A stretch of 64,000 nt of DNA from Sphaerodactylus townsendi (lineage: Eukaryota). Positions 3,302 through 63,529 of the stretch are shown here, in pieces. Location: positions 140,864,001 to 140,928,000 of the forward strand of contig NC_059426.1 in assembly GCF_021028975.2 (NCBI RefSeq), written 5' to 3'. The stretch's first letter is position 1; every line of letters begins with the position of its first letter. The translations under genes and the position numbers were made by a program. The notes beneath the pieces were generated by a model. That model had not been told where the DNA came from, did not search any database, and saw only the letters and a list, made by a program, of their open reading frames with translations.

Positions 3302-3465
3302 CTGCCTCAGCGAGAGCCGCCTCCGACTGCCAGCGCCTTACACCGAGCCCAGCCGCCCGAGCGGCGCCGACGCAACCAACATGGCCGACGGGGAAAGCCG
3401 GTTGCCACGTCAAAGGGCATGAAGCAAAGCAGGAGTCCCCAAGTGGGGCGGGGCCCCGGGGCGGT
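3302..3465 (-). promoter_or_regulatory. CpG-island promoter and non-coding first exon of a minus-strand gene, probably SEC23A
   Basis: Donor CAG/GTAGGT on the minus strand at 3302/3301. YY1-like AACATGGCCG at about 3378-3387. TGCCACGTCA (CREB3/XBP1-type) at 3403-3412. GC boxes at about 3445-3464. Identity is inferred from synteny only; no coding exon was recognised in the window. Confidence 0.55.
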
Positions 3466-4617
3466 ATTCTGTTTTCCCCTCAGAATTGGGGCGAAGGGCG
3501 TCCCTTGAGCCAGGTGGGCAATGGTCTGGGGGCCTGTCCAACGCCTGGGGTCGATTTCAAAAATAGTTTAAAAGTTTGGTTTTTCCCGAGCAAAGTAATA
3601 TACTCTCCCACCCACACACACAGAATCACACACGATAATAACTCCCGTTCCAGAGTTGAGGTATATTTAGTATGCATTTCACTCTGCTCACCCCCGTATT
3701 TGTGTGAGTTGGTTTGGTCTGAGGTAGAGTTCCCAGCTCAGTCCTGCCGACTCTTTACAATTGAAGACTGAATGAGCTCCCTTGTCCTGTATCTTACCTC
3801 CCTTGTTACCTCCCTGTATCTTAATAAATGGATGTTGTTGCAAACACACCTGCCTGTTTCACACAGTTTTCGAAATTACAGAAGTGTTACAGCGGTAAGG
3901 TGTGGGCCACTACAGAGAACTTGTGGTGCCCAATATTTCTTTACCAAATATCAAGCCAATAGAAGAGAGTTTTAAGTAACTATATATGCAAAGAAAGGGG
4001 AACCGTCCCCACATGAGTGGACTCAGTTGAAACAGTATATACACAGCATGTTTATTCCCTTCTCCCAAATTCGCCACACCCTCTTTGTTCCCCCACTGGC
4101 TAAGGGTACTTAAGAGTCACAACTTTCCGATTCGCCTATTTACATGTTCCTCCTTAACATGTGGACCCCTTCCATATTCTTTCAGTATGTTCATTATAAT
4201 ACAGTTTGTCGTCATAGCAGGAGGAGAAGTTAATATGCATTGGCCTATTAAGTATTAGCCTATCAATACGTACAATCTGATACAATCCTTGCCCTTCAGC
4301 CCAGTCATCCAGCAGTCTTATCTTGTCCTGCCACAAGCATCCTCCCTTATGACTCATCTCATTCCTAGTAGAAAACACATTTCTCATTTATCACAAACTC
4401 AGGTTGTTTATCTTGTCCATTTGCAGGGTGGCACCTGTAGAAAGCTCATATAAGCACAGTTGTTGTGGCAAGGCACAGGAGGAGAAGCAGTTCTGCAGGT
4501 AGGAGTGTCCATGGAGATGAATGCTTTTGTATATGATGACCACTATCCTGAATTAAACCCAGTAACTAATGGTGATTCAATGGAGTGACTGCAGAAGCAG
4601 TGAAATATGCATACTCC

Positions 4618-5772
4618 CAGCGGTGGGATTCAGCCAGTTTGCACCCGTTCGCTAGAGCTGGTAGCTAAAAAATTTTCTGTAGTTCGCAGAACCGGTTGTT
4701 ATCCCCCAACCTGGCCTCAGCCCCTCCCTTAAAACTCAGGTTCTTCAAGGGAAAGGACCTTTCCCTTTAAGAGGACCTTTGCTCTTAAGAAGACCTTTCC
4801 CTTTAAGAGCCCTAAGGGAGGGACGGAGGACAGGCTGGAAAGGTGAGCTGGGCAGGGAGGGAGAAGTCAGGAGTGGAGAGAAGGAGGCCTGCCACACCCC
4901 TCCTCCTCCTCCCCCTGCCTCACTCTGCCTGACTGCTCCTTCAGCCAGGCCCAGTCAGGCTGCCTGAGACCACAGCGGAGCCTCCAAAAATAAGTGGGGT
5001 GGAGGACGGCCTGGGCCCTTGAGGGCCCAGCAGAGACCTTTTGTCCCCCCTGCCATCCCTTCCCATTTCCACCACTCCTAGCCACCCCTTGCCACCTTCC
5101 CCCACCCCTTGCCACCCTCACTTCACCCCTAGCCACCCCTTGCCTCCTTTCCCTCACCCCTAGCCCAGTTGGCATTGTTCTGAGACATGGTGATTTTGGA
5201 GTGACTTGGTGCATAAATCATGAGGATCAGTGTTTTCCGAGATGGTTTTGCACCACTGCAGTGCCATGGGGCATGGGATGCATGATTGTTGTGTTCAGAC
5301 ATATGGCCAGGCGCTTCAGCTGTTATGTGCTGGTGATTTGGGGGTGACTTAGTGCAAAACTCATGAGGATTCATAAGGATCTATGTTTGTCAAGCAGGTT
5401 TCTGCGCCACTGCGGCACCATGAAGCATGGGATGTGTGATTGTTGTGTTCAGACATGTGGCTAATGGCTGGAGTTGTGATGTGCTGGTGATTTTGGGATG
5501 ACTTAATGCAAAAATCATGGGGATCCATGTTTTACAAGCAGGTTTTTTCATTAATATTTTAAAACTCTTTCTTATAACATAATCTAGTTTTGTGTACCTC
5601 TTTTATTATTCTTATTTAAGTATTAACTGTATGAAATGATGAATTATCTTTCGGTATATCTTTTTTATATACTTAAAACAGTAATTAGGGCAGCAAACCA
5701 GTCGTTAAATTATTTGAATCACACCACTGGAAGTTTGGACCCGGTTGTTAAATTATTTGAATCCCACCACTG
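4618..5772. mobile_element. Non-autonomous hAT DNA transposon with internal tandem repeats
   Basis: TIRs CAGCGGTGGGATTCA...TGAATCCCACCACTG. Perfect 8-bp TSD CATACTCC at 4610-4617 and 5773-5780. Confidence 0.85.
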
Positions 5773-6434
5773 CATACTCCATATATTTAAAAGAAAGCCA
5801 AACATATGAGCCTATATCCTGAATCAGACAATGGACTATCTAACCTAGCATCCTGTTTTACATAATGGCCAACCAGACTGCACCCAAAGATGTGAATTAG
5901 ACAGCCCCATCCATGGGGCAGGGAGGGCTTGAGGGAGCAGGAGCAGCCTGGCCGGGACATTTGTCCTCCCCAGGGCACTTACACAGGCAGAAAGGGTAGA
6001 TGTGCTGGTGGCTGCCCATCCCTCAGTCCCACCACCACAAACCTTGAGAAGTCCAGGCAGCAATGAGGCTGCACTGGCATCACAATTGGACACCAGTGTG
6101 AGGAGGGGCAAGCCAGGGCATTTCTGGTATTTAGAAGGTATTCTAAATATGGAGGTTCCACTGAATCATATGACTAGTAACTATTGATAGACCTATCCTC
6201 CATGAAATTGTCTAATCCCCTTTTGAAATCAGTTAGACTTCTGGCTATCATCACATTTCATGGCAGAAAATTTCACAAGTAGTCACTCTTTGGGTGATTC
6301 CTCTTGTATGTTTTTAACCTACTGCCCCAAAGCATAGTAAAAATCTGTCAAAAACAGTCAAAACAGAACTAGATTTGTATCCAAACTAAATGTAGTGCCT
6401 CCAATTATTTCCTCTAAATAAAAACAGTTCCTAA

Positions 6435-7108
6435 ATTACCTGGGCAGGGGACATAATGCAAATAGGTCTCTCTAGGGTCGACTCGTGTCTGCGGAAATTG
6501 TTACCTGAGCTCGACTCTTCTGTTATTCCACACAAAAGCCAGGTCGTCTCTCCAGACCCAAGTTCAGAGGGCGGGGTTACCTCCTCACATCTTTCGCTCC
6601 TCATTCCCGATTGGCTGCTGTGCTATGGAAGGAAACGTGTGTGTGTGTGTCCCTTTTTTTGATTTGCCACCTAGGAGCTACGTTGTGACAATATCACAAA
6701 GCGCCGATTTCCCGCCTGTCACAAACTGGCGGGAATCTGCATTTTTGCAAGCCTTCTCTGTCGGAGCAGAACAAGCAGAGCTAAGCTGTTGCTTCGTGCA
6801 CGAGAAGGGGTTTTTTTTGAAGGTGCGCTTTTCGCCGCCTTGAGTCTCCCGTTCTGCGCATGGCCAAAATACTGCACTGTGATTGGCTGGCTGGCAGAGT
6901 CGAGGCGAGGGAGATTCCGCACTCTGCCGGCTTCGGCTTGAGTGCAACCCAAGTTCGGCAAAAAGTCATACCTCCCAGTCGAGCTCAAAAATTTGACGGT
7001 GAGAGGGGGGAGAGCAGAGACAGACACGAATTGAACGCTACAGCTATGCGGAGTACCCGGGTTGGACCTATGTCGAACTAAGGTTAAATCCTACAGTGCG
7101 GAGGGGCC
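6435..7108. mobile_element. CpG-rich Harbinger-like element, left end not recognised
   Basis: The right end GTGCGGAGGGGCC matches the TIR type of 29126-29266. Confidence 0.5.
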
Positions 7109-8623
7109 CTTAAATATGACATAGCTTGTCTTAATTCAACCCTTACATGAAATCACAAATCAGTCTCTGAAATAGTTCAGTTTTCAGTTGCCATCTCAAG
7201 ACTACCATGGAAGGGCTCCAGAAAATTTCCCTGAGGAGGAAGTTTGATCGTTTCGGTCCCTGTGCAGAAAAGTTCCTGACACCCAACGCTGCTCAGATCA
7301 CAGAGACCCTTGACTACCCATGAAAGGTTCAGCAGAGACAGTATTTAATTTCATGGACCTGTAGTAGCTGAAAAAGTAGCACCTGTTCAGTTCCTCATCA
7401 TGTCACAGCATTTTCAGGCTCTTTAACTGATGGGAACTTCCTCTTCACACTCTGACATGAGAACAGATCAGAGACAGGCTGTATCAGCTACATTTGAAAC
7501 AGAAGTATTTCTTGCCACTGCTCTTTGAGGAAGGCAGTTTGATGTAGTCAGTGCATTTGAATCAAGTCTGTTCTTCTTTGGTCACTCGCTTGAGATTCTT
7601 GTTTCTCTGGCTTTTTTCTTTTTTGGGGGGGGGAAGGGGTACTGCCTCCTTTTTTTAAAAACTTGTCAGATGGAAATGCACATATACACCAAATTACATA
7701 TAAGCAGCAGTTATTTGTTGTGACCAACCACTGAAGGGTGAACATCTGCATCACTGGCTGGCATTACTGTGTGCAGTTGTTCTCCTCATGGCATCTCCAT
7801 GCTGGGAAATGCTACCACTGTTTGAAAACAATCCTACTTATAGCTACTGTAGTGCACAAAAGAACTTCATCGTAATCAGAGGGGCTCATGTCCCCTCAAT
7901 ATTGAGGAAATATTTGCATGCAAAAATTTAAGAATGCCTAACTGGCAGTCATTCCCACTGAATAGAATTGGACTTACTTCTGAGTACATCAGCTCAGGCT
8001 TGCTTCACAGAGACATGCTAAGTAGATCTATCCATAAGCCTACTCAAGTCTACTCAGTTGGGCTTACTCCCAGGAAAATGTTACTACCTTTTGTTTTATG
8101 TCACTTCAGATATCGGCTCCTGTAAATTAGAAATAGTCAGAACCCCTCATCATCACTACATCAGATCCATGATGTGCATGTAATTGTTCACAAGCATTTG
8201 CTTGACAAAATGCTCTATTTTCTGTTTCCTTGGTATTAATTTGCATCTCTCCAACATACAATGCCACTAGCCTGCAGCAGGGACTAGTCCCTAAAACAAA
8301 ACACGCAAAATCTATTCCAAACATATTAAGAAGCCATTTAGTAATGATTTAGTGACTAAAACCATGCTATGTGATGCAAATAAACATTTTAGTAACTTAA
8401 GTATTAACACAAATCTACTTTAAACTTCGGCTTAATTGTCTAAACTATGAACAAATGTTTACGTACTGTCAGCTTTCCAATTTCGAAAAAGAAAAACACA
8501 ACAGTAGTAAACTTTAGTACTGTAACCGGAATGTGACGCCCCTCATTCCCTACAGCTCAGCTTGTAAGCCCAGAGGGAAAGCCCCACCTGCGGCCCACCA
8601 GAGGGAGGAGGCGGAGCCACAGC

Positions 8624-8816
8624 GGGCGGCTCTATGCAAATAAGGTGCGGCACGGCATTGTGGGAAAGCGGGGAGCACCGCGATCGTCCGAGTTTTGTGG
8701 GGTCAGTTGGCACCCAGATCGGTCGCTCTTTGCTGTCAGCGAGGCGCCTCGCGATCCTGAGGCATGGACGGTGTGAACAAAAGCAGCGGTCCGTGAGCCG
8801 CCGTGGCTTGTAAAGT
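8624..8816 (+). promoter_or_regulatory. U1 copy A promoter: DSE (GC box, octamer, SPH/Staf-ZNF143) and PSE
   Basis: GGGCGG at 8624-8629. ATGCAAAT at 8634-8641 (-225 to -218). SPH motif on the opposite strand, TTTCCCACAATGCCGTGCCGC, at 8647-8667. PSE-like GCCGCCGTGGCTTGTAAAGT at 8797-8816 (-62 to -43). Spacing is that of Pol II snRNA promoters. Confidence 0.85.
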
Positions 8817-8858
8817 AGTCGTCGGCGCTGGCTAACGGCTTTCGGGGCCGAGGAGAGC

Positions 8859-9022
8859 ATACTTACCTGGCAGGGGAGACACCTTGATCNNNNNNNNNNN
8901 NNNNNNNNNNNNNNNNNNNNNNNNNNNNNNNNNNNNNNNNNNNNNNNNNNNNNNNNNNNNNNNNNNNNNNNNNNNNNNNNNNNNNNNNNNNNNNNNNNNN
9001 NNNNNNNNNNNNNNNNNNNNNN
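8859..9022 (+). ncRNA. RNU1: U1 spliceosomal snRNA gene, copy A (nt 32 onward masked as N)
   Basis: ATACTTACCTGGCAGGGGAGACACCTTGATC at 8859-8889 is the U1 5' end, including the 5' splice-site recognition sequence. It is followed by 148 N. The 3' end is inferred from the 164-nt canonical length. A full snRNA promoter lies upstream. Confidence 0.88.
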
Positions 9023-9671
9023 NNNNNNNNNNNNNNNAATAGGTTTAAATATTTTGCGTTTTCCGTGTGTGCTTCGATCCCTCGTGTTGTCTTTGTCCAG
9101 GTCCTGTAGACTTTGTCTCGCCGTTTTAATTCGAAGTTACTTCAATTCACACTCCTGCTGCCCAACAAATCTTTCATGCCAATATCATGCAAAAAGCGAA
9201 GCTTAAGTGCCATTATCTAATGGCCAAAGGAAATTGGCCTTGTGTTACCACTACCACTATGAGACCAAGACCATGTGATTTCAACCCCAGTGCAATCAAA
9301 TGGTCTTCTCTGTTTGCAGCTCACACCCCCCCCCCCGCCATTTCCATTTTAAAAGTACATGAATAAAGTTCGTTTCCTATAATCTGCTCCCCCCTTCTTC
9401 CACACCCCTTAGTATGGTAAAATTGAAAACTAGTTTAAATTGGGGATGACAACGATGCTGCTTTTATAGAATTGGATCATATGGAAATTTTATATAATCA
9501 GTCGCCATCACTTGGTTATATGATTAATTTAATTTTCATGGGGATTGTTAGTGGTTATTTTTAGGTTGTATTGTATTACTGTACATTTTAATAATGTGTG
9601 TAAGCCATTCTGAGCCTGGCCTTTGGCTGGAAAGAGCAAGGTAACAAACTTAATAAAATAAATTAATTAAT

Positions 9672-11450
9672 CACAATGAATGATTTTATTACAGCCGCAA
9701 AGCCAGCAAAAAGAAAACGAAAACAGATTCAATTTATACATATATACAAACATCCATGGCATAATACCCATACCCAAAAGAAGCATCAATTTACAACATT
9801 ACAGTCACCATCATCTAGTGCTGCTCCCTGTCTTAACAATCTGTGCTTGCTGTATACTAACATACAAAATTTGGCTACCTTCAGAGATGTAAAGGAAACC
9901 TCGTCTTCCAATAAGATTCTTGTAAGAGCTAAATCAGAGTCAACTGCGATTGGATTAATATAATGAATTAACAATGGTTGAATTAATGACTTCCTTTCTG
10001 CTTTATAGAGTTCACAGTGCAGTAGAATGTGTGACTTAGGGTCCACTTTTCCTGAATTGCAAACACAAACTCTACTGGACTGTGGAATTTTTGGAAATCT
10101 TCCTGCTAAATTGGCTGATGGAAAAGCATCAAAATGGGCCCTAGAAAAGGCCCAGTGACATTTTGTAGATACAATATTAAATCAATAGGGGGATGCTGAA
10201 ATTCCTGACCAGGATTTCAATGGTTTATATAACAATGGTAACAAGGAGTAATTTGTTTGCATTTTGATGTCATTAAATCTTTGATAAACCAAGACTGTTG
10301 CTCTATGGAAACCCAATTCCAATAGTTGCATAGGATCCAACCTGCATTGTTTAAGTTTGAGTATTATCTTTTCTGACCAACTTGGATATGGTGACACTGC
10401 CAGCAAGAAAGGCAGTAAACCCAGAGGCTGGAGAAGAACTTTAAGCCAATATTTAATAATCAGCCTCCAAAAGGTTGTCTCTACTTTCACCATCCCTGCT
10501 TCTTGTCTTAACACTGCATTAGCTGTACATTTAGGTGTATTAAACAAAGCTCTAAGGAATGCAGATAAGACTCTAATAAAGTAAAATCTGTTACTAGTGC
10601 CAGTGGAGCTCCATAGGTAAGTTGAGCCAAGGATTTAGCTTCGAATAATCTAATTGCAGGTGGGATAAATCCACCCCCTTGCGATCAAAAATATCTCAAA
10701 ATTGCCTGTGAGCTCCTTTGGGCTGTGTGTGTAACTGATTGTATATGGACCATGAGTTTCCCATTATACTGGAAAACCACCTCTAGGTATTTGAAGCACA
10801 ATCTGATATCCAGTCAACTGTCAATTCTGTTTCTTAAATTTAGCATTAAAGTGTCTTGTCTTGTATAATTAATATTTAACAATTCCTCTGCACATTTTTG
10901 AGCAAATATCTTCAGTGCTCTTTTAAGCCCCACTTACCAGGGACAAGCATAGGTGCATGGGTATCTTTCTTATGGAAACCAGTTATGAGTATATTAACAT
11001 GGAGGTTAAACAAGTGGGGTGCTGAAAGGTACCCTTGCCTCACACCTTTCTGAGTAGAGATGGGCACAGTTAGGTGACCTTCATGTGAGAACCTTACCTG
11101 TATGGTTGTATTCTCATGTAATTTAACAATTGGTTGGAGAAGGTGTCTATCAATATTAGTCTCCTCTAGCTTTGCCCAGAGACAAGTGCGTGTTACATTG
11201 TCAAATGCGGCCTTAAGATCAACAAAGCCCGCATATAGAGATCCTTTTTTAATATGTACATATTTTTCTATCATATATTTTAATATCAGGCAGTGATCCA
11301 TTGTCAAGCGGCCTTTACAAAAGCCAGCCTATTAATCTTCTAGTTTCTCTGTCCAACCGTGCAAGAAATTTTTTTGCTCAGATATTTGGTGTATAATTGG
11401 TTCACAACATTGAGGAGGCTAATTGGTCTGCAATTAGCTGGTTCGGAGAA
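9672..11450 (-). mobile_element. Decayed 5'-truncated non-LTR retrotransposon (RTE-X-like) ORF2 fragment
   Basis: Minus-strand RT motifs EPANCRPISLL (about 11410-11445), FVDLKAAFD and GVRQG..P.LFN (ORF 10912..11307). Downstream PKCTANAVLRQEAG...KYWLK (ORF 10182..10547). The 3' end has AATAAA and a short repeat near 9690. Frameshifted. Confidence 0.8.
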
Positions 11451-12048
11451 TAAATTATCACAAATGTTAAACAGCGTCCGGTGTGTAAAAATGAAGGGTT
11501 GGATAAGCACCTGAGCAATGTAAGGTGAAAGACAGTCTTATACGCAGAGTAAAATGACTAAACTACAAACTAACATGGCGAAACAAACTTGAATCTGGCA
11601 CAGTATATGACTCGGAAAAAGACAACACCAGTTTTCAATTTTACCATACTAAGGGGTGTGGAAGAAGGGGGGAGCAGATTATAGGAAACGAACTTTATTC
11701 ATGTACTTTTAAAATGGAAATGGCGGGGGGCGGGGGGGGGGGGTGAGCTGCAAATAGAGAAGACCATTTGATTGCACTGGGGTTGAAATCACATGGTCTT
11801 GGTCTCATAGTGGTAGTGGTAACACAAGGCCAATTTCCTTTGGCCATTAGATAATGGCACTTAAGCTTCGCTTTGGCATTGATATTGGCATGAAAGATTT
11901 GTTGGGCAGCAGGAGTGTCGAACTTCAGAAGTAACTTCGAATTAAAACGGCGAGACAAAGTCTACAGGACCTGGACAAAGACAACACGAGGGATCGAAGC
12001 ACACACGGAAAACGCAAAATATTTAAACCTATTNNNNNNNNNNNNNNN

Positions 12049-12212
12049 NNNNNNNNNNNNNNNNNNNNNNNNNNNNNNNNNNNNNNNNNNNNNNNNNNNN
12101 NNNNNNNNNNNNNNNNNNNNNNNNNNNNNNNNNNNNNNNNNNNNNNNNNNNNNNNNNNNNNNNNNNNNNNNNNNNNNNNNNGATCAAGGTGTCTCCCCTG
12201 CCAGGTAAGTAT
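12049..12212 (-). ncRNA. RNU1: U1 spliceosomal snRNA gene, copy B (nt 32 onward masked as N)
   Basis: GATCAAGGTGTCTCCCCTGCCAGGTAAGTAT at 12182-12212 is the reverse complement of the same 31 nt. 148 N at 12034-12181. The 3' end is inferred. Confidence 0.88.
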
Positions 12213-12254
12213 GCTTTCCTCGGCCCCGAAAGCCGTTAGCCAGCGCCGACGACT

Positions 12255-12447
12255 ACTTTACAAGCCACGGCGGCTCACGGACCGCTGCTTTTGTTCACAC
12301 CGTCCATGCCTCAGGACCGCGAGCCGCCTCGCTGACAGCAAAGAGCGACCGATCTGGGTGCCAACTGACCCCACAAAACTCGGACGATCGCGGTGCTCCC
12401 CGCTTTCCCACAATGCCGTGCCGCACCTTATTTGCATAGAGCCGCCC
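12255..12447 (-). promoter_or_regulatory. U1 copy B promoter: PSE and DSE
   Basis: PSE at about 12255-12274. SPH TTTCCCACAATGCCGTGCCGC at 12404-12424. Octamer ATTTGCAT at 12430-12437. GC box CCGCCC at 12442-12447. Confidence 0.85.
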
Positions 12448-14599
12448 GCTGTGGCCCCGCCTCCTCCATCTCGGGGTTTCCGAAGTGAGAGGCGGGGGGT
12501 TTGCAGCCGATGGATTGAGGAAGGGCGACGGTCGAATTCTTTTGTTTAATGACAGCTACTGTGAGCAGGAAAATGCTTTAAAAAAGCAGGAGAGAATCTG
12601 CTAGAGGACTTTGAAAGCAGAAGGACACAAACGTCAGTTGCCGTTGTTTTATTTCTGAAAGTTAAAATAAAATAATTTTTCAAATACTATACTAAAATCT
12701 GGGTATTATCTACAACACGTGATACGGATCTGGTCAGTGTCTTGGTGGAAAATCAGTTGTCTGCTGCCTTGAAGTGTAAGGACGAAAGGCTTGATTTTCA
12801 GGTAACAAATGAGATCCTTTCACAAACGAACCAAAAAAATCCTAGGGGAAATCCGGAGCTAGTTCTATTAAATATTTGTATTTTCTAGAGGTGCCACTAA
12901 ATTATTGGCCACCGCTAATTTTTTCCAAAACCTCTGCAAGGAACATCTTTCACCCGCTGTCATCACCCAATTGGGGTTATTGCTACAGGCCCATTGATGT
13001 CAAAGGATTTACACAAGTGTGTTTGCGACCGCACTGAGAGACTTCTTACAAAATAAAATAAGGTTGACTTTCTCTATAGTTCAATTTTTCTCGATGCATT
13101 ATTCCATTTCACTTAAGCATGGAAAAACATTTTTGGCCAGAACAGTGAATGAATGTTAACAGAGGTTTGAGAAACAGAAGGGTGGGGGTGGTAATTCTCG
13201 GACTGATACTCTCTGAAAATAAAGGAAACAATTATGAAAGAAAGATTCACGTGTGTCATTGTTAAACTGTATACCCTTTTCCATTCACCCCTTGCATTTC
13301 ACTCCAAATGTCACAGCAAGTGAGACATTCTTTGCTCTTGCCGGACAAAGTGTATTTCTGCAGTTAAGCTCAAGATTCAAAGGTCCATGCAATGTATTGA
13401 ACTATAGCAAGTTTGCAGACTCCGTGTTTCTACCATCCCATCATCTGTTATGATCTGAACACTTCATTTGCTGGCTTATGATGCTTGAAAATTCCATAGA
13501 TTGGTCGTTGTTGTTTTTACAAGACAGAGGTGGACTCCAACGGGCACACATATAACACCTTCAAGATGTTATGCATAGCATTTGGGGAAGAACTTTCCAC
13601 AGATCTCTTCCCCAAAAGGACTCATTTCTCTCAATCCAGGTTTTACAAACATCACCGAACTTGTGACCTTTTTGCACAGTCCTGGGGTGGAGGCACTCCC
13701 ATGCGAACACAACAGCCAGGAGACATTTTATTTTCTTCCCTTCCATCTGGTTACTTTTAAGTTCTGCTACCATCCGCCATTTCAGGAAGAATCTGCCCAC
13801 CTGCCAGTCTGTGCAGTTCACCCAGCACATTGTGGGCAGATTCTCTGAGCACCCACCATTTCACAAATCCTCCAAGCACATTTTCTTCCCGTGGCAGCAA
13901 GTATGACCACCATTTCACTCATAGATCTACAGCAACACATTCATTATTGCCTGGCCATTGCAGAAAAGTCCCTTTTTCTCTTTTAAAATTTTTGTGTATG
14001 TTAAACATTTGAAGCTACGCAGGTGCGAGACAATCAGCATCGCTGAGGGGTTCGTTTCTGTATGTCTTCACAGCTAGGCCTGCATTGAAAAAAAATTAAA
14101 AACAGAAAGAAGTGTTTCTGTGCAAAGGTGTGAAAGCAACCCAAATTGTTTCCATGAGCTCAAATTGCTTCCTGAACACATAAAGGGCACACATGCGAAT
14201 GGAAAAAAGGAAAGTGGGTTCATGTGTAATAACTGCAACTTGTTATAAATATGCTGTGCAGAATCCACTAGAGAGAGATCTCTCACAAATTTTCTCCATA
14301 AAATTCAAACTGCTGACCAATGGGGAAAGCAACTGGAGGAAGCCACATTGTTGGCACTTGAAAGAAAATGCCTGTGAGGAGTATGTCAGACATGAGAGGG
14401 GGTGGTGGGGGATGAGTGCGCGTATGCCAACCCAAGTATCTAATGAAGAGCTGTTCTCCTTGTGAGTAGGCAAGCAGTCTTGAGCTGAGCAGGTGGTTGC
14501 CCACTTGGGGGTCTCTGTCTGAGGATGGCCAGATCCCATTTCCACCTGCCTAGTAGGGAGCTCGTAACAGGCAGACTTAGCTGGAATTGGGAAGGAATT

Positions 14600-15480
14600 A
14601 AGTGAGCTGTAACCCAGTCAGCCGGCCGGGGCAGAATTACAGGACCATCGCCGTTATAGAGGAGTGCTTGGGCGGAGAGGCGCTGAAGGAAGACACCCCC
14701 ACCCAATGCAGTAATTTGCAGCCCCGGCCCGCGGGGATCACCAGCCGCTGGTATAAAACAAACACCTCTCCTCCCCTCCCCTCCCGAATCAGAATCCACC
14801 TAATATATTTTATTAAGCTCGACCCACTTAGGAGTTTTTTTTGTTTGCTTTTTCCAGACTCGAAGATTAGGCCCCGGTTTTATGAAACAGTGGTACGACT
14901 GTCCCTCTAAAACTATCAAAATGACTCAAAAGAACGCACAAGCTTCCAGATCCTGCAGCGCGCTTTTGCAATCAAACGCGCCACCAATGTAGCAACAAGC
15001 CGCAGAGGGGATGGGAAAAGGTGAGAGAAGGCTTATTATAATGAATGGCTCCACCCGCTTTCTCTTTCCCGCCATCCTCTTCGACCAGTAGAGGCCTGGC
15101 ATGCGTTTTCATGGGAGAAGGTCGTGTGTGTGACGTCACCATATGGCGCCGACATCCGAAGCCTGCTTCCGTGTGGTGGTGGAGGAGGCGACTGCGGTGT
15201 CGCCTGGCGATTGCGTGCGCGCTTCCTCGCCGGCCAGTGGCTACTCTTCTGGTGCCGCTCCGGGAGCCGCGGGTGGTCAGAGCGCGCCGGGAAGAGGGAG
15301 GCGGAGGGGAAGTCTGGAGTCTTCCCTCGCTTGCAGGAAAGGCTTCGGGCCCCACCGGGCTGCTGATGCGGAGCGATGGGCGAACTGCCGGAGTAGTTAG
15401 AGGGCCGTTGCAAAACTCCGCGTGTGAATGAAGCGGGGACGGGTTCAACAGGCGAGTAGTGCTCCAGGCTGCAAGGAGGG
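14600..15480 (+). promoter_or_regulatory. CpG-island promoter, probably of PROSER1
   Basis: CpG-rich. Full CRE TGACGTCA at 15131-15138, YY1-like ATATGGCG at 15141-15148 and ETS-like CTTCCG at about 15166. Candidate donor TGA/GTAAGT at about 15550. Confidence 0.65.
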
Positions 15481-18195
15481 GGCATACAAGCTGGCTCGTT
15501 AACTAGGGAGTAAACTTCATTCATCTCAGTAGTAGAAATGTGTTTCTGAGTAAGTGGGTGTGCAGAGTGATCCTGTGCACCTTTTATTTGGAAGCAGGCT
15601 GCCCTTGGATTAATTGCAGGTTAGACGTCATGTCGGTTTGCACTGGCCTTGGGCCATTTACAGGCTTCCTGCCTAACTGACCTCGCTGGGTCTGATTCTG
15701 CACTGGCAACTCAAACTGGTTGCGTGAACCCGTGTTGTCTGTGCCACCGTTTGTGCCACCGGCGGGAGCAGGGGCCATCTGGGATCACTGGGATCCCAGC
15801 GACAGGAGGCAGCACGGTTTGCACAGAGAACACTGTATGTCCATGCAAACCACGCAGTTGAGAATCATCCCCACCCAGTTACCAACACAATATGGTGGCT
15901 GCCTATTATAGAATCCACCACAATGGTGGGCAGAAGGAGTTGGGAATAGAAAACTTCCTGCTTGCCATAGTTTTCACAGACAAGCAAGAATTGACTGACA
16001 CCTAGGTTAATGGAGAAAAGTCATTAATTTAGCAACTTTCATTTGACCCGGGTTCAGCCAAAAATAATAGGTCAGAAGCATTTGGGGGGTGAGTTCTGTG
16101 GGACCATCTCCCCCATAACACTTTGAAGAAGGGCCTGAACCTGTTACACTTGGCCTGTGCAAAATCACCATGAGTCGTTACAGTAAAGAGCAGGGTAAAA
16201 ATATATTAATGTGATTTGCAGGAATATCTGATTAGACATCTGGAATTTTTTTGTTTGTGTAGGTGCCATAGCGTTGATCGGCCTTTAAGCTTCTTTCAAT
16301 ATGTTTACATGAACTGGATTCAAGAAGCTTATATTCTACTTGTAGAGGACCTCAGCATTTGAGCAAGTGTTTTCAACTCGGGTTGAATAGGTTTGTGCCA
16401 GATGAGTTATTCTAAAAGTATAGTTGGAAAAGGAGGATTGGTAGTTCCCATGGCCTCCAGTGAGTACTATGCTAAGGTTATGTATTTTGATATAGTCCAG
16501 TTAATGTTGACAAGGTCTGGGTTCTTCCTTTCTAACGCTGGTTAGCTGGGATAATTATGATTATGTTCTCTTCAACTTGATAGTGTTAAGACAAGACTTA
16601 CAGGGAAAGACCAGAGGTTCATATGAGCAGTTCTCTCGTGACCAATTAGATGCTCTCCAAAGTTTGTGTAAGTTTGTTTATTTTGATTTCTCCTTTTTCA
16701 GGCTCATACATGAAGGTAACAACCCTTTCCTAGGTAACCTGAATTCAGTGGCATGTTGATTCTAAACTTGGAGGTTCCACTGAGCAATCATAACTAACAG
16801 GAACAGTTGTCTTCCATGAATTTTCTCATCCCCTTTGAAAGTGAGCTCTGGTTATCTCTACATCTGGGATAAGCTAACTTATTTCTTCGAATTCTGCTGC
16901 CCGTCAATTTCAGTGGGGGCCCTCTGCTCTATTGTTATGTGCAGTTGATCTTCCTGTCCAGTTTATCTATATGAATCGTATCGATCGCTGTCTCCCACAT
17001 CCTTCATAGTTTGGAAAAAATCCTGTTACAGAACAGTTCTTACATCTGTAGACACATAAATGATTATTTTACCAGTTTCAATATGCTGTAGCAGGTTTTT
17101 TAATATTGTTAAAGTAGTTATACCCCATGTTTTTTCTTGGCTCAAGGAAAGAAACTTACATGTGTTTGGAAGTATGTACACCCAATCAGCAAATGTGGAA
17201 AAGATAGCTTTATTCTTTCTGTTTAAAAATTCATGTAAATAAAAATGGAAGTTCAGAAACTGAAGTTACTGATCTCTGGGGAAGTCATTTTTAAAAAATC
17301 TTAAAATAGTGACATTTTCAAGGGAACCTTATTGTTTATGTGGCTTGTGGCAGCTGATTGGATCTGTTTGCTTCAACACTTCCACTGTGCAGTGATGATT
17401 CTTGACTGAAGAAGTCAATGTTTCAAAGTTTAACAATATTCAGTTTTAATGAGAGTCTTTAATGTTGTGACATGTCCTCTTTCAGAGAGCAGGATGCAGT
17501 TTAAAGAGAACTATAATTGTGATGTGTATGCTAATTCCCTGGTGCAAGGTGTTTTTGCATTGTTTTTTGGCAATGCTGGCTGGAGATAGAACTAGGTTTC
17601 TATATGAACTTTTAGTTTTTGCCAGTTGGAAAAAGAACGGAGGGAAATGATTGGTACTTTAGGGATGTAGCAGTGTGCTACTCACTTTTTTAAATGACAA
17701 AAATAAGCCAAACACACCATTTTATATGTTAATTGTATTATGCATTCTATGTTCTTTGTCATAAGTGTGTTTTCTAGATTGGATAAGAAAATACACTTTA
17801 CAAGTTTCCATCCTTTCACCACTACCACCTTCAGAAATCTTACATGTTTAAGTAAATGGCTTTAGAGAAGTATTGTGTAGTTGACTGATGGCAGCATTTG
17901 GCTAATATTAATTTACCAGCCTTAGATAGGAGTTGAGCTTTCTTCTGGGAGATCATGTAAAAAGCTTGGGGGTATTCTTGAATGTAGCCTTATTGATGGA
18001 TGCATAGGTCATTACTGTTGGCGGGGGCATCTTTGTGGTCAATCTAACTTGCATTTAAATTCATGGGACTGTCCATTTGCCTACAGTCAGGTCAAAGGCA
18101 TTTTCTGTGGCAGGGCTGGTCCTCTGGAATGATGTACCAGAGTGAGAGTGGAGGGCATCTTCACTTTCCACATTCAGGAAGTCTTGTCAAACAGT

Positions 18196-18770: not shown

Positions 18771-19089
18771 AGTCTTATTTCAGAGGATTTTTGTAGCATC
18801 TTAATTCCAAAGTTAAATCTGAAATCAAGCAAAGGATTTGAGACATCGAACTTCAAGATTATTCAAGTTCTTCTACTAAATACTTCAGGAACAAGAAACA
18901 AGTGTTGTCAAACTGTTTAGCTAACTTACTAATTTGATTGTTTAGCATTCAGTTCAGCAGGGTGTGAAGTATAAAGAGATGCTAATGTATTTTCTGATTT
19001 TTCTTTTTGGATTTTTCTTCCACAGAAGGCAAGTTTACAGCAAAGGGTGCCTGGAACAGACAAGGGGCTGTGCCCTTGAAGAAAGCAAG

Positions 19090-36952
<17,863 letters not shown>

Positions 36953-37526
36953 AGAACTTCCGTTTCTCCTGCAGAGAGCCGTTTTTGAAGAATGTTGTGG
37001 TAGCTTGGCAAAGCCACTGATGATGTTCCCATTGAAGGCTTTGGAAAATATTTGCTTCAATTTGTAGCACTGAAGAGGAAGAGAAGAAGGATTCTAAGAA
37101 GCTGTTTCCAACACACTACACAACAAAATGAACTCTGTTGCTTTTTATCAGTAAAAACACTGGGTGTCCCTAATTCAGTTCCCACTAGTAAAAATTCAGG
37201 GTACTTGGATCTTCACATAACCCAGCCTAGGGGGTCAGTATTTTTTTTAAATAAGTGATTTGGGGTAAAGAGTGTTACATGAACTTTTGGGGACTAATTT
37301 AATGCCATGTTTGATATGGTGTTTTTTTGCTAAAACGGAAGTTTAAATCAAAGGCTCCCAGAATGTCAGATGCTCTCCTTTCTTCCCACCTCACGTTGCG
37401 TATCAGATTCCTCTGCTTTTCCCAGGCAAAAGGCAGTTTTCTTCTCAGTCTATTCCAGTTCCCTGCCTTTCATTTTTAATGTTCTGGATTGCCTTTCCAA
37501 TTCATTTTTGCACATATGCGTCTAAA

Positions 37527-37823
37527 GAGCGAGCCAACATGGTGTAGTGGTTAAGAGCAGATGGACTCCAATCTGGGGAACCAGGTTTGATTCCCCCACT
37601 CTGCCACTTGAGTTGTGGAGGCTTATCTGATGAACTAGACTAGCCTGTGCACTCCAACACATGCCAGCTGGGTGACCTTGGGCCAATCACAGCTGTTCGG
37701 AGCTCTCTCAGCCCCACCCACCTCACAAGATGTTTGTTGTGGGAGGGGAGGGAAAGGAGATTGTAAGCCCCTTTGAGTCTCCTTACAGGAGAGAAAGGAG
37801 GGATATAAATCCAAACTCTTCTT
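37527..37823 (+). mobile_element. Same SINE family, in the probable PROSER1 3' UTR
   Basis: Homologous to 1338-1677. Confidence 0.8.
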
Positions 37824-38696
37824 CCAAACTCTAAATGCTATAATATGTATCAAATCGCCCCTATTCTTTACCTGTACATGCTTCCAATCATATATGTGTG
37901 TGTCTCCTGTTGGTGAAACATTGGTAGAAACTCTGGTGCATCAAATGTACACTTCAGTTTCTGCCTGACATGTCAAAGGCCTGCTGAATTGTGAGCAAAG
38001 TAGTCACTTTTCTTAAATGAAAACTGCACTATCATATAATGCTATATTGTAGTAAGATAAGTATTGATTCTCTGGCTAAAAGACTGCATCTAAAATATCT
38101 GTGAAAATGCCAATTTAAACTTTTAAAATGTATCCTCCACCCCATGTACCTACACTGTACAAGTGGCTGGCACTAGATTATCCCCTGCTTCCACACAACA
38201 GAAGTCAGCAATGTACTCACAAGGATTTTAAAGACAGATGGCTCATTTGAAGTGTGAATGACGCAAAACAAGCTATAGATGATACTGTTATGTTAACGAA
38301 GTGCTCTATATTGTTATAGTATACATAGTAATGAATAGAAAAATCCCTAATATCTCTTAAAGTCTTCATCATGTTCTAGATCTACATTAGCGACATGCTT
38401 GATTTGTTTTTTAATGTGAATTGCCAGAAAAAGCAGGGCTTGATACCTTTTTCTCCTAATGATGGAAGCATAGTAGGTGCGATTAATACAGGTTTCCACA
38501 AGTGAAAAGGCATGAAGAACACTAATGTGTATATATCTGTATTTTTATAAAGTTTTTTTAAATAAAATATGTAGGGATGATACATACGTTTCTAAGCGTT
38601 GACTAGAATAAACAATTCTTTACAAAACTGTTTTGTCTTTCATTGACAAGTTGCAGGGAATTAAAGTGAGTGTATTTATGCTTTTTTTGAGGAAAG

Positions 38697-38882
38697 TTTT
38701 TTTGCTGTCAAGCCACTTCTGACTTACAGCAGCCCCTGGTGGCATTTTCAAAGCAGGAGACATTCAGAGATGTTTGACGTTGCCTGCCTCTGTGTCATGG
38801 TCCTGATATTCCTTGGAGGTCTCCCATTCAAATGCTTGCTGGGTTCACCTGCTTCTGAAATCTGATGAGATCTGGCTAGCCT
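38697..38882 (-). mobile_element. 5S rRNA-derived SINE, older copy
   Basis: Reverse-complement similarity to 1060-1270 (ggaggtctcccattcaaat...tctgatgagatctggctagcct). Confidence 0.65.
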
Positions 38883-40599
38883 AAGGGTAACATGATACTA
38901 AAAATCAGAATATTTAAGACTCAGGTTTGAAGATATTCACCTCATGTATGTGTATCCTAAAGTAGTTAATTAAGTTCTTAAGTATTCAGATAAAAATGGA
39001 GGGACTTGAACAAATGAATTTTGACTCTTGAAAGCTTAGATGTTGAAAAAAAATGGTTGTCTTTCAGGTTCTACCAGTCTGGAATGGTGTTCCACTACTA
39101 CAGCCTAACACTGTAACCCACCTAATATATCTATATTAAATTTCAGTTTTTGGAGTGGTATAGAAATACCTCATCATTTTGAAGTACATGTCATTTTATG
39201 CCTCCATTTTGTACAAGAGGGCCCTTTCCACAAAAATCTAAATTGTAAAACAATTTCAATCCCCTCCCTTTGTGTACATTCACCCCCTAGAAACAGGTCC
39301 TGGCTGCCAGTACATAATTTTTCCTTTTTTTTTTTTTTTTTGGAGCTGTGTTGAATTGATGCTTTAATGCTTTATAGCCTTGTGCTGCATTCTATACCTC
39401 TCATATACTTGATGCTTTAAAGATTGCGCCCCCCCCCAAAAAAAAAAGAAATATAAGAATGAACAGAGTAATGCTGCAAATAAACAGGTGAGGAGGAACT
39501 GAGTGAGCTTAGAAAATGGGTTGAGGAGGAAGTTCAGGGAAGTAGAGAAGAATGTGAATTGAATGTAGTAAATAAATCGCACAGCAACTGAAGTTGTTTT
39601 CAAAACATTTCAGCCAGAGAATCATTTGAAAAGGGGATTCATTTAACATGTTTTGAGGTTGGGAATAAAACGTTTTGGGTAAACGCAATGCAGAACTCCA
39701 TGGAGAAAACGTTTTTATTTCCTGCCTCAAAATGTTTTAAATTATGCAGAAAAGCCTGAGGACATAAAAACATTTGGGCTCGTTAGGAAAGATGACCGTG
39801 AATGTGCACATAATCCATTATTTGCTGTGCACTATTTTTGTCCATGTATTGAGCAATTTGGAGAGGGGTCATGGCTCAGTGGTAGGATCTCTTTGGCATA
39901 CAGAAGGTCTCAGAATCAATTTCTGGCATATCCAGTTAAGAGGATCAGGTGCTAGTTAATGTGAAAGACCTCCAGCCCTGACCATGAGGGCAAACTACGT
40001 AACTAGTCTGAGTCGACAATATTAATCTTGAGGAATTGATGGTCTGACTCAGTGTAAGGTAGCTTTGTGGGTTCAACTCTTGGTGGTGGAAGAGGAAAGT
40101 GCCATCAAGTCACAGCTGATACAAGGCAAGCGTCTAACAGACATTTGCCATTGGGGCAGAGTAGACCGCCCTCTCAGCCTTGAGAAATTCAGTTAGTAGG
40201 ACATTCTTGCGCACCCATCACACACGCTGCATTTCCACAGAAAGGTCTGCCTCCTGGTTTGCTCTGAAACGCTCAAGAAAAGCCTGCGGAGAAGTTACAT
40301 TATAGAGGCTCCGATTCTCCATATTCTATTTCACTGCATCACTCCGCATCTCACAGAAATCCGGAATAAAACGTCAAGAAAGGGAGAGTAGCAAGTCAGG
40401 GCACACGCGCCAAATCACCCGTTTTCGAAGAAACCCCTTTAAAATCCTCCTTCAAAAAGTCAGGCTGTTCCTGCCCTCCACCATCTTTAGAGGCGCGCGG
40501 GTTTTGCATTTCGGTCGCAGCCGTGCCGTCATGGGCGTCTTTTTGCACATGCGTTTTGCATTCCCTGTCGAAGAGCGTTCTGCTGCTGGGAGGGCTGCG

Positions 40600-43500
40600 A
40601 TGGAGTCGACTGTCGAGGAATTGATGCCCTGCCTTTTGCCTGTGGAGGACTGTGACATCCCGGAGGATTTCGACCCTACCGTGCCCCCCAGGACACCCCA
40701 AGAGTATTTAAAGCGGGTTCAGTAAGTGGGTCGAGAGTCTGCAGGGTTGGGAAAGGGGCTGCCCGCCCCCGGGTGAGTGGAAAGAGCGGGCTGGGTTTGA
40801 TCGGACCCTCCTTTTGGAGACGGCCATGCAGCTGTCCCATACCGATGCTAAGGGTTATCTGGATCGGATCGCCCCTTCTAGTACACCCACAGTTTCCTTA
40901 TGGTTCAACGGGGCAGCGCTTCCCTTGATAAACAAGCGCGTTAGGTTCTGCCTGGGTTTGGCACTTAATATCACTATATGATCTTAATGAAGAATGTGGT
41001 TGTTATATGCTCAAGGCTTGTGGAGTGAAGGTACATTTATTTGCCTTAGTAGCCATATTCTGCTTATGTTCATCTTTTAGCATTGCTTGTCTGAAGATGC
41101 TTGCCAGTAGTATTGCATCCTTAAATAAATGGAGATAAAATCTAGTGAACTTAATGCAGTGCAGGTGCCCTTTTTTCTGAGATTCACTCTGTGCTAGCAG
41201 GCATCCATTTGATCAGCTGCAGAAGGTTTTCAGAATATTACATGTGGTGGCATTAAGAACACTTTAGTCCTATGGTGAAGGATTCTGATTCTCTAATCTC
41301 AGTCACAACCTGTTCTGCCACTAGACAGAAAACAGCCTGGAAATAAAGCTGCTTCAAGAAAAAAAAAGAGAACAAAAACTGAATCCCACAAGAAAAGCTA
41401 GATTTTAAAAAATAGAAGTAAAGACTTTATGAGAAAGATTTTATTGCCTTCAAAACGTCTGCTGCAGGTCTGTGAATCCAAACCTTCCATTATTTACAAG
41501 GTCATAAGAATGTGGACAGCTAGAATTCAAGCCATATGTTCATCAGCAAGAGTTTAGAAATAATTATGAGAGAGTGCTCTCAGGGCAGAGTTGCTGTCTC
41601 CAAGTGAAGTTTTTGTTTGCATGAACATAAATGATGTGAAGAAAGTTTTAGCTGCTTTGCTTCTGTCTCTCATTTGGTATTTAAAAACAGCAGGGTCAGA
41701 AAAAAAAGATGGCACCCCCTACTGAGAACTGGGCAGATAATAGCTGACAGATCAGTGTTCCAAATAAGATTCTTGTTGAAAGTTTAAGCTTTGAGAGTTC
41801 ATGCTGCAGTACAGCAAACAAATTGTTGGGAATATTGGTGTATAGAAAATATAGTTTGGTTTTAATTTGTCAGTACTGATTCTGTTTGTTATGGTCACTA
41901 TCAAAAAGTCCAGATTCTATCAAAGGCTCATTCCGCATGGGCCAAAAACAGCAGTGTGAAAATGGTGTAAAAGGGTTTATACCGTTTTCACACCATTTTC
42001 ACATCACTGTTTTTGGCCCATGCGGAATCTGCCAAAGAGAAAGCAGTACAGAAGGTCTGTGGCAGGCCAGCTGGGACAGAAGAGTAGTTGTGGTAATTAA
42101 AAGTCATTTTGTGGTGTTAGTCATGTAAAAGAATCTCTTCAGATGTGAAAAATACAAGCATTCTTAGATAATTTCTGTACTAAATTGGAAGACATTTTTT
42201 AAAAAATAGGACGTTTGTTTTCTTGTTTTGTAGGATTGAAGCTGCAAAATGCCCAGATGTTGTTGTGGCCCAGATAGACCCCAGAAAACTGAAAAAGAAA
42301 CAGACAGTGAATATTTCAGTAAGTTCTGAGGAAATGTAGTGACAGCATTTCTTTTGCATGTTTCAAGGAGCTCCTGGCAGCAGTAAACATTGAGATTCTC
42401 TCTCCTCATTGAAGTTTCTCAACAGCAGTGACTCATCCAAGTTCACACAATGAGCTTCATAGCTGAGCAAAGATTGGTACACTTTTGCCCTGAACCATCT
42501 TACTCTGGCCCTCTAGCCCCTATACCATAATGTTCTTTGTTCATTTAAGACTGGACTGTGGTGGAAACATAATGAGAGAACAAAACTTCAAGGTTTGTTC
42601 TGCAAGATTACCTTATCCAAATTGCACAAAAGTTTTACAGGATTACCAGTAGCAAAAACAGAGTTCATGTAAATTGGTATCTAGTCTTACAGAACAAACT
42701 TGGAATTGCAGGAATTGCAGTAATGCTGGTAAATCTTAAAGGTGTTGCAAGGGTGCATCCATGTAGTACAAACAATTGTTGAATACAACTCTGAATCAAC
42801 ATTTTCACTGCTGCTGGGGTTTTGGTTACTAATCAATTTTCACTTGATGTCCACTATAGTCATTGCTTCTCTTCTCTCTGAATCTGTAAATTTAGCCATA
42901 AATAATGTTGACTGGGTCAGGGTGTACAGATTTTAGCTAGTTATTTCTACTAATTATTCTAGCTAGCAAGGCCAGGCTTTCTCATATCTTGATCCACAGA
43001 GGCAAAACAAATGCAATGCATGGCAAACTGGTTTTATAAGGGGAGGAGTTCTAGACAAGGTGATATGCTTTGGAAGCAGCCCTTTCTCTCTGACTCTTGT
43101 CCTACCTAGCATGTGATATAGCCTGCCACCATTTTGAAAGAAGTACACTCTGCATTGTGTGGATTTTCCAGCCATACAACCTAGGAAACCCACAACAACC
43201 TAGTGATTCTGGCCGTGAAAGCCTTCAAAAGTACACTCTACCTCTGCCCATGAATCTGGCCCCAGTGTGTGCTAAAGTCTGTCCCTGTTGGTTGTGACTT
43301 TGGATGGCTATGAATTGCTATAGCAACCATATTTTATTTTATTTATAGACTGCCTTTTAGCTGAGACTCAAGGCAAATTACACCATTTAAAAAACAATCC
43401 AATCAGGTGACAAAAGACCTCCAATAAATAGTACAGTAGAACTAGAACTGCAGAATTGGAAAACAGTGCAACAGAAAGTATAACAGACTGTCTAAGACAT

Positions 43501-63416: not shown

Positions 63417-63529
63417 ATGGCGGTGGCTGTGCGTGCTCTGCAGGAGCAGCTTGAGAAGGCGAAAGAGAGTCTCAAGCACGTCGATGAGAATATCCGCAAA
63501 CTCACCGGGCGAGATCCCAATGATGTGCG
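63417..63529 (+). CDS. PNN: Pinin, first coding exon (gene continues beyond the window)
   Basis: MAVAVRALQEQLEKAKESLKHVDENIRKLTGRDPNDV(R), followed by donor CG/gtaagg. Lies in a CpG island, head-to-head with TRAPPC6B as in mammals. Confidence 0.95.

What the first reader, a model, noticed from the sequence alone, without database searches (positions are those of the whole stretch)
3302..40600. PROSER1 plus a U1 pair lies inside the SEC23A-GEMIN2-TRAPPC6B-PNN syntenic block
Seen: an intact, intron-containing PROSER1 ends about 3.6 kb before the GEMIN2 ATG, and no NHLRC3 exon was recognised upstream of it. Established: in human GEMIN2 directly neighbours SEC23A on 14q21, whereas PROSER1 is on 13q13 head-to-head with NHLRC3. 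Inference: a DNA-level single-gene relocation (introns retained, so not a retrocopy) in one lineage, with the U1 inverted repeat at one junction.
Basis: partly seen in the sequence, partly recalled or inferred. Interest (0 to 1): 0.7.

Follow-up and report, generated by a model that had tools for sequence, protein, structure and literature searches.

The report
PROSER1 moved in the lizard-snake ancestor
In this gecko the intact, intron-bearing chromatin gene PROSER1 sits between SEC23A and GEMIN2 instead of beside NHLRC3, and gene catalogues place it with GEMIN2 across lizards and snakes, so it likely moved once, as DNA, in their common ancestor when its old chromosome block broke apart; the U1 pair next to it is likely a later bystander.

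Summary
PROSER1 has 13 intact coding exons at ancestral intron positions, is single-copy, and lies between SEC23A and GEMIN2. It is neither a misjoin nor gecko-specific: PROSER1 and GEMIN2 share a contig in 32 of 32 squamates and 0 of 5 outgroups. A published table keeps PROSER1 beside STOML3 and NHLRC3 in tuatara, turtle, chicken and mammals. The move therefore dates to the squamate stem. The donor block did not simply lose one gene. TRPC4, UFM1, PROSER1 and NHLRC3 now lie on four different chromosomes, and FREM2 and STOML3 were not found; that break-up is in print (PMC13005343), the landing site was not found in print. New here: PROSER1 protein changed three to four times faster on that stem than two control genes, which fits a passing duplicate. 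The U1 arms are 96-98% alike, too young to be the scar. This scan noted the same move before in another lizard. Verdict: a new member of a known kind.

The parts
3302..3480 (-). SEC23A promoter and untranslated first exon (extent inferred); coding exons lie before the window
   Evidence: CpG-rich stretch and a minus-strand donor at about 3,302; first coding exon at G000:C2:140,857,277 matches human Sec23A, E 2e-34
8595..9434 (+). Left arm of the inverted repeat: U1 snRNA gene with octamer, GC-box and SPH-like enhancer, proximal element and about 400 nt of 3' flank
   Evidence: promoter and 5' end match complete U1 genes elsewhere in G000; motif names recalled
9435..11626 (-). Spacer between the arms, holding a decayed non-LTR retrotransposon
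   Evidence: RVT_1 at 10,912-11,328, E 2e-12
11627..12476 (-). Right arm of the inverted repeat: second U1 gene, convergent with the first
   Evidence: 98.3% over 290 nt of promoter and 5' end, 95.8% over 408 nt of 3' flank
15000..15550 (+). CpG-island promoter and likely untranslated first exon of PROSER1
   Evidence: CpG island; a Paroedura isoform joins sequence matching 15,366-15,455 to the ATG exon
19026..19134 (+). PROSER1 ATG exon (ATG 19,090), opened by a splice acceptor 64 nt before the ATG
   Evidence: annotated isoforms of geckos, a cordylid, a varanid and snakes match this 5' stretch
19090..36952 (+). PROSER1 coding region, 13 exons, 925 aa, DUF4476 at the N-terminus, 1,705-nt exon 11 at 32,775-34,479
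   Evidence: single locus in G000
36953..40599 (+). PROSER1 3' UTR and the gap to GEMIN2 (right junction of the moved segment lies somewhere here)
   Evidence: covered in 30 of 30 bins by contigs of 4 of 4 runs laid, none spanning it whole
40600..51267 (+). GEMIN2 coding region
   Evidence: tblastn with P0338; Pfam SIP1
60591..60668 (-). TRAPPC6B first coding exon
   Evidence: PDB match to TRAPPC6B, E 9e-10
63418..63510 (+). PNN first coding exon (name recalled)
   Evidence: reading frame seen; no PDB match; order agrees with the turkey list

Best explanation
PROSER1 is an intact, single-copy gene with its ancestral introns that sits in the SEC23A-GEMIN2 gap, and it likely got there once, on the squamate stem, as a DNA copy whose original was then lost when the TRPC4-UFM1-FREM2-STOML3-PROSER1-NHLRC3 block broke apart. 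Shown: position, intact frame, single copy, shared contig with GEMIN2 across squamates, NHLRC3 left beside LHFPL6 and COG6 and now head-to-head with ESD, former neighbours on other chromosomes. Taken from print: the ancestral order in tuatara, turtle, chicken and mammals. Inferred: (1) a 25-30 kb genomic segment was copied into the gap between two head-to-head promoters, probably during repair of a chromosome break; (2) two copies coexisted for a while, which relaxed constraint and gave the long stem branch; (3) a break at the shared PROSER1/NHLRC3 promoter removed the old copy together with STOML3 and FREM2, and this was survivable because the new copy existed; (4) the 5' end was remodelled to an upstream CpG promoter with an intron in the 5' UTR; (5) the U1 inverted pair arose or was homogenised much later and played no part.
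For: Gene model with 0 mismatches. Exon-skipping isoforms of non-squamates remove aa 16-37 (5 pairs, = gecko exon 2), 160-187 (= exon 7) and 215-243 (within exon 9), so these introns predate the move. All 11 matches of P0001 in G000 fall in this locus; no remnant in 200 kb from LHFPL6 across NHLRC3. Different contigs in 5 of 5 non-squamates. PROSER1 and NHLRC3 share a contig in 9 of 9 non-squamates, one of 87 kb. Published order for tuatara, turtle, chicken, human, mouse. Turkey and human lists have SEC23A next to GEMIN2, and PROX2-DLST follow 1.2 Mb downstream in the gecko as in the turkey list. TRPC4 on C7, UFM1 on C12 beside POLB and DKK4, NHLRC3 on C1, SERTM1 on C4. Stem-to-crown branch ratio 1.71 (95% bootstrap 1.39-2.05) against 0.52 (0.24-0.89) for GEMIN2 and 0.37 (0.17-0.59) for NHLRC3, without a shift in composition. 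Loss of PROSER1 is costly in mice (PMC11610933).
Against: No duplicate or remnant survives, so the copy-first order is indirect. The rate test has only two control genes with partly different species, uses predicted proteins, and most of the signal lies in the low-complexity region; for aa 1-215 alone the ratio is 1.29 (0.65-2.67), overlapping GEMIN2. A rate burst can also follow a change of promoter or selection. PROSER1 and NHLRC3 still share chromosome 1 in 6 of 13 squamates, which allows a route by inversions. Contig length and accession order are proxies for synteny: five species give large gaps (292 for the window's own known neighbours, 1,550, 1,740, 5,150, about 9,200). The SEC23A side was shown only in G000. 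The tuatara order comes from a supplement row spread over three scaffolds.
Confidence: 0.6

Rival explanations
1. The same stem-squamate move happened without a duplicate: PROSER1 was cut out and re-inserted in a multi-break event, or was carried by a translocation and then two overlapping inversions on ancestral chromosome 1.
For: Several neighbours moved too. PROSER1 and NHLRC3 are on the same large chromosome in 6 of 13 squamates, and the paper's table says the same for Anolis and Pogona. No remnant exists.
Against: It needs a break reused exactly between SEC23A and GEMIN2 that restores their order and the downstream block. It does not explain the long PROSER1 stem branch. In 7 of 13 squamates, geckos included, the two genes are on different contigs.
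Confidence: 0.3
2. The U1 locus caused or marks the insertion: a highly transcribed, break-prone inverted U1 pair stood in the SEC23A-GEMIN2 gap already and has been kept alike by gene conversion since.
For: The pair lies in the left junction interval, 2.5 kb from the PROSER1 promoter. The 5' edge of identity falls right at the enhancer, as conversion would give. U1 loci do move as DNA here: the copy on C17 shares about 450 nt of further 5' flank with the left copy at 76-85%.
Against: Identity covers 400 nt of 3' flank that no other U1 locus shares, which fits a recent local duplication. Nothing U1-like is at the right junction or was seen at the donor site. No outgroup evidence for U1 at this site was obtainable.
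Confidence: 0.06
3. The move is older (lepidosaur stem) or the squamate order is ancestral.
For: The tuatara row is compiled from three scaffolds, and no tuatara contig data came from my own calls.
Against: The table lists FREM2-STOML3-PROSER1-NHLRC3 for tuatara, turtle, chicken, human and mouse, and PROSER1 beside NHLRC3 in platypus; 9 of 9 non-squamates share a PROSER1-NHLRC3 contig.
Confidence: 0.03
4. Assembly misjoin in this genome.
Against: 31 other squamate assemblies put the two genes on one contig. A misjoin would not restore SEC23A on the far side of the insert. Single-copy contigs of 4 of 4 runs tile the right junction and break at repeats.
Confidence: 0.01

Closest known systems
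Squamate break-up of the chicken chromosome 1 / human 13q13-14 region with loss of FREM2, STOML3, LCP1, RUBCNL, SIAH3, LRCH1 (Salve et al. 2026, PMC13005343)
   Same: Same donor block and branch. Its Table S4 puts POSTN-TRPC4, UFM1, PROSER1 and NHLRC3 on different chromosomes or far apart in Podarcis, Anolis, Pogona and Crotalus, and NHLRC3 beside ESD.
   Different: The paper is about lost genes. PROSER1, GEMIN2 and SEC23A do not occur in its main text, and GEMIN2 and SEC23A occur once each in the supplement, in a gene list. It gives no landing site, intron evidence or rate.
DNA-based gene relocation by duplication and loss of the ancestral copy, as described for Drosophila (recalled, no paper read)
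   Same: One intron-bearing gene in a foreign, otherwise intact block, with no copy at the old site.
   Different: Here the donor site was not left intact: both flanks were rearranged and neighbours lost. The duplicate phase is inferred from a rate burst only.
Retrogene relocation
   Same: A single gene at a new site with what looks like a remodelled 5' end.
   Different: All 12 coding-region introns are present, and those that could be tested are at ancestral positions.
Rescue of genes from decaying Y chromosomes by transposition to autosomes (recalled)
   Same: Needed genes (PROSER1, UFM1) survive singly elsewhere while dispensable neighbours are gone.
   Different: No sign that the donor was a sex chromosome; NHLRC3 from the same block shows no stem acceleration.

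Membership tests
PROSER1 orthologue | N-terminal DUF4476 plus long Pro/Ser-rich region; groups with PROSER1 of other amniotes as species do | tested here: met
   Pfam E 5e-26; 15 squamate rows form one side of a branch at support 100 in the quick tree of 25 rows
DNA-based gene relocation | Ancestral introns kept | tested here: met
   Skipped segments in non-squamate isoforms match gecko exons 2, 7 and (in part) 9; other introns not testable this way
DNA-based gene relocation | One copy at the new site, none at the old | tested here: met
   genome search counts are lower bounds
DNA-based gene relocation | Host flanking genes adjacent in outgroups, and outgroups keep the gene at the donor site | tested here: met
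   turkey and human gene lists; Table S4; contig proxy 9 of 9 and 0 of 5
Relocation by duplication then loss | A duplicate or decayed remnant at some stage | tested here: inconclusive
   no remnant in G000; stem rate burst is indirect
Relocation by duplication then loss | Junction signature (microhomology, target-site duplication, element ends) | not testable with these tools
   event older than crown Squamata; window against the NHLRC3-ESD interval gave only short dispersed-repeat-like matches
Retrogene | Loss of introns | tested here: not met
   13 coding exons
U1 snRNA gene (RF00003) | Covariance-model match of the RNA body | not testable with these tools
   most of each body reads N in the window; three other loci with the same 5' end and promoter score 125-172 bits
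U1 snRNA gene (RF00003) | Proximal element and octamer enhancer upstream | tested here: met
   read from the sequence in both arms and shared with the complete copies; motif names recalled
Inverted-repeat scar of a rearrangement | Repeat as old as the event and flanking the moved segment | tested here: not met
   arms 96-98% alike and both on one side of PROSER1

The most novel reading that the evidence does not exclude
The 13q13-14 block of the squamate ancestor was dismantled gene by gene: dispensable members were lost while needed ones (PROSER1, UFM1) were rescued singly as whole DNA copies into housekeeping promoter gaps on other chromosomes. PROSER1, the regulator of TET enzymes, passed through a burst of change and took a new promoter in the process, which may have altered control of DNA methylation and retroelements in all lizards and snakes.
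Probability: 0.2. Interest if true: 0.65.

Novelty: new member of a known kind. Interest (0 to 1): 0.36.

Why it matters
Single-gene insertions into intact amniote synteny blocks are uncommon, and this one is a shared derived character of squamates that can be scored in any new genome, including dibamids, whose position is debated (recalled). It adds the surviving half to a published story of gene loss: four consecutive survivors of one block ended on four chromosomes. The coincidence of the move with a three- to four-fold faster change in PROSER1 makes a general question testable in one clade: do relocated genes pass through a relaxed duplicate phase? The gene itself looks ordinary and functional.

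Tried and rejected
Rfam on the window: 0 matches, because most of each U1 body reads N. DUF4476 family search in G000: 0 matches, exons too short. NHL family search listed 20 matches and missed NHLRC3; it was found by walking from LHFPL6. Frem_N, FREM3-like and Band_7 searches found no FREM2 or STOML3; these searches score only the best candidates, so absence rests mainly on PMC13005343. The idea that the third U1 copy on C2 marks an ancestral locus beside EAPP/SNX6 (recalled for human) was rejected: it lies beside PROX2 and DLST. Neighbours of the C17 U1 copy were not identified (0 of 66 candidate exons hit Pfam). No RNA holder listed among 8 runs. P0215, a PROSER1-cluster member on another Phrynocephalus contig, is a transposase piece and not a second PROSER1. 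A block-wide decay was not supported: NHLRC3 has no long stem branch. The careful tree did not finish; the quick tree was used. Paper searches without a relevant hit: PROSER1+synteny (3 papers), PROSER1+squamate (0), PROSER1+GEMIN2 (1, unrelated), PROSER1+NHLRC3 (15), U1/inverted/conversion/synteny (20 of 620 listed, none on U1), transposition/relocation/squamate (0).
Full report
What is in the window. The window is G000:C2:140,864,001-140,928,000. The encoded PROSER1 is identical to a record named Sphaerodactylus townsendi, so this is a dwarf gecko. The order is SEC23A (-), a U1 inverted pair, PROSER1 (+), GEMIN2 (+), TRAPPC6B (-), PNN (+), and a MIA2-like gene beyond the window (PNN and MIA2 are recalled names). 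PROSER1 has 13 coding exons from 19,090 to 36,952 that splice to 925 aa with 0 mismatches to P0001. Its stop is 3,648 nt before the GEMIN2 ATG at 40,600.

The introns are old. I compared 14 long/short isoform pairs (13 non-squamate, 1 snake). Five pairs drop aa 16-37, exactly gecko exon 2. One drops 160-187 (exon 7). Two drop 215-243 or 219-243, within exon 9; one of these is also among the five. Six differ only at the N-terminus and one gave no internal gap. So at least these introns predate the move, and the gene is not a retrocopy.

One copy, no remnant. The large exon gave 1 match and the whole protein 11 matches, all in this locus. NHLRC3 is on C1 at 171.474-171.493 Mb, 7 exons, next to LHFPL6 and COG6. 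Where PROSER1 used to face it, ESD now starts about 3 kb away, followed by a PROB1-like gene. Five PROSER1 queries found nothing above chance in those 200 kb.

How far the arrangement reaches. No other eukaryotic genome is searchable here, so I used two proxies from the protein collection: the length of the contig that carries each protein, and accession order. Many are whole chromosomes, which says little, but four are small scaffolds: king cobra 194 kb, Protobothrops 402 kb, Gekko japonicus 854 kb, Thamnophis sirtalis 2.3 Mb. Identifiers are within 33 numbers in 27 of 32 species and consecutive in 7. The five large gaps include the window's own species (292), where the genes are known neighbours, so large gaps are uninformative. 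Seven squamates were left out because only one of the two genes was seen (Tiliqua, Erythrolamprus, Phrynosoma, Python, Crotalus horridus, Laticauda, Gekko kuhli); Euleptes and Pantherophis count for accessions only, Paroedura and Podarcis muralis for contigs only. In non-squamates the two genes are on different contigs in 5 of 5, and PROSER1 shares a contig with NHLRC3 in 9 of 9, one of them 87 kb long. In squamates PROSER1 and NHLRC3 are on different contigs in 7 of 13 and on the same chromosome of 330 Mb or more in 6. The SEC23A side was tested only in G000.

Polarity and date. PMC13005343 (seen: abstract, passages, sections 5 and 10, parts 43 and 50 of supplementary file 1 and search hits in it) reports FREM2 and STOML3 as lost in squamates through rearrangement. 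Its Table S4 gives POSTN-TRPC4-UFM1-FREM2-STOML3-PROSER1-NHLRC3 for tuatara, turtle, chicken, human and mouse. For Podarcis it places POSTN-TRPC4 on chromosome 17, UFM1 on 8, PROSER1 on 1 and NHLRC3 on 3. A turkey gene list has SEC23A directly before GEMIN2, and further on PROX2 and DLST (PMC8470100, one table passage); human deletion lists agree (PMC4502401, two passages). In the gecko PROX2 and DLST follow 1.2 Mb downstream, so the host block is otherwise in place. The move falls after the split from tuatara (about 250 million years in that paper) and before crown Squamata. Figures and any picture-only supplement of that paper were not visible and might show the landing site.

The donor block in this genome. 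SERTM1 is on C4, TRPC4 on C7, UFM1 on C12 head-to-head with POLB, among DKK4, GGCX, STAMBP-like and KANSL3-like genes, PROSER1 on C2, and NHLRC3-LHFPL6-COG6 on C1. FREM2 and STOML3 were not found. So PROSER1 is one of at least two genes of this block that now sit alone in a foreign neighbourhood.

A rate burst on the same branch. On a fixed species tree, the branch from the sauropsid split to crown Squamata divided by mean crown depth is 1.71 for PROSER1 (100 bootstraps: 1.39-2.05), 0.52 for GEMIN2 (0.24-0.89) and 0.37 for NHLRC3 (0.17-0.59). Nearly all of it lies after the tuatara split (0.144 of 0.153). Amino-acid composition does not shift. Against reading much into it: two controls only, partly different species, predicted proteins, and a wide interval for aa 1-215 alone (0.65-2.67). 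It fits a period with two copies but does not prove one. PROSER1 loss is costly in mice (PMC11610933; seen: outline, section 5, four passages), which makes loss of the old copy easier to understand if a new one already existed.

The 5' end. In mouse the guide RNA that targets codons near the start is said to hit exon 1. In the gecko the ATG exon opens with a splice acceptor 64 nt before the ATG, and annotated isoforms of geckos, a cordylid, a varanid and snakes match this stretch; a Paroedura isoform links it to the CpG island at about 15,400. The moved gene may have a remodelled promoter, but the state in tuatara, turtles and birds is unknown.

The U1 pair. The arms are 98.3% alike over 290 nt of promoter and 5' end and 95.8% over 408 nt of 3' flank; other promoter-bearing U1 loci on C2, C17 and C4 are 82-93% alike in the promoter and share no 3' flank. 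The spacer holds a retrotransposon remnant. Both arms lie on one side of PROSER1. In its present form the repeat is far younger than the move. Whether a U1 gene was here earlier could not be tested.

Reads. Eight runs hold part of the locus; four were laid on 36,700-40,800. All four cover 30 of 30 bins, single-copy contigs break at repeats, and none spans the whole stretch.

Earlier notes of this scan. One report on another lizard reached the same reading (e1-10284373); I met it after my own tests, and it is not independent evidence. Two notes on this genome describe other displaced genes; I did not check them.

Verdict. A real, squamate-wide relocation of an intron-bearing gene, part of a published break-up of its old block. 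The landing site was not found in print in the searches named under Tried and rejected. The stem rate burst and the parallel case of UFM1 are the additions worth following. Interest 0.36.

Noticed in passing
G000:C12:33.29-33.31 Mb (L116, L117, L145-L147): UFM1, a former near neighbour of PROSER1, sits head-to-head with POLB among DKK4, GGCX, KANSL3-like and STAMBP-like genes: a second single-gene relocation from the same block.
   Followed up: partly
G000:C1:171.493-171.497 Mb (L050): NHLRC3 and ESD are head-to-head with about 3 kb between their start codons and no strong CpG island, where PROSER1 used to be.
   Followed up: partly
G000:C2:140,934,600-140,944,800 (L077-L078): A run of about 10 kb that is over 90% G inside the PNN gene, just past the window; likely an assembly artefact.
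   Followed up: no
Protein records P0214, P0216 (Hemicordylus capensis): Two annotated PROSER1 isoforms begin with a 366-aa extension holding a Tc1/mariner transposase (HTH and DDE), joined at the same acceptor before the ATG exon: an annotation artefact or a transposase fusion.
   Followed up: partly
G000:C17:4,049,075 (L089) and window 8,210-8,590: A complete U1 gene on C17 shares about 450 nt of further 5' flank with the left window copy at 76-85%: a DNA-level copy of a U1 locus between chromosomes.
   Followed up: partly
G000:C2:142,075,100 (L090): Another complete U1 gene 1.2 Mb downstream, beside PROX2 and DLST and just behind a CpG island.
   Followed up: partly
window 35,607-35,609: PROSER1 intron 12 uses a GC donor.
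   Followed up: no
window 6,460-7,110: A CpG-rich stretch between the SEC23A promoter and the U1 pair, with a short palindrome near 6,707-6,740; possibly a non-autonomous DNA element.
   Followed up: no
G000:C1:171,625,300-171,628,700 (L063): Reverse transcriptase and tyrosine-recombinase frames side by side, a DIRS-like element.
   Followed up: no
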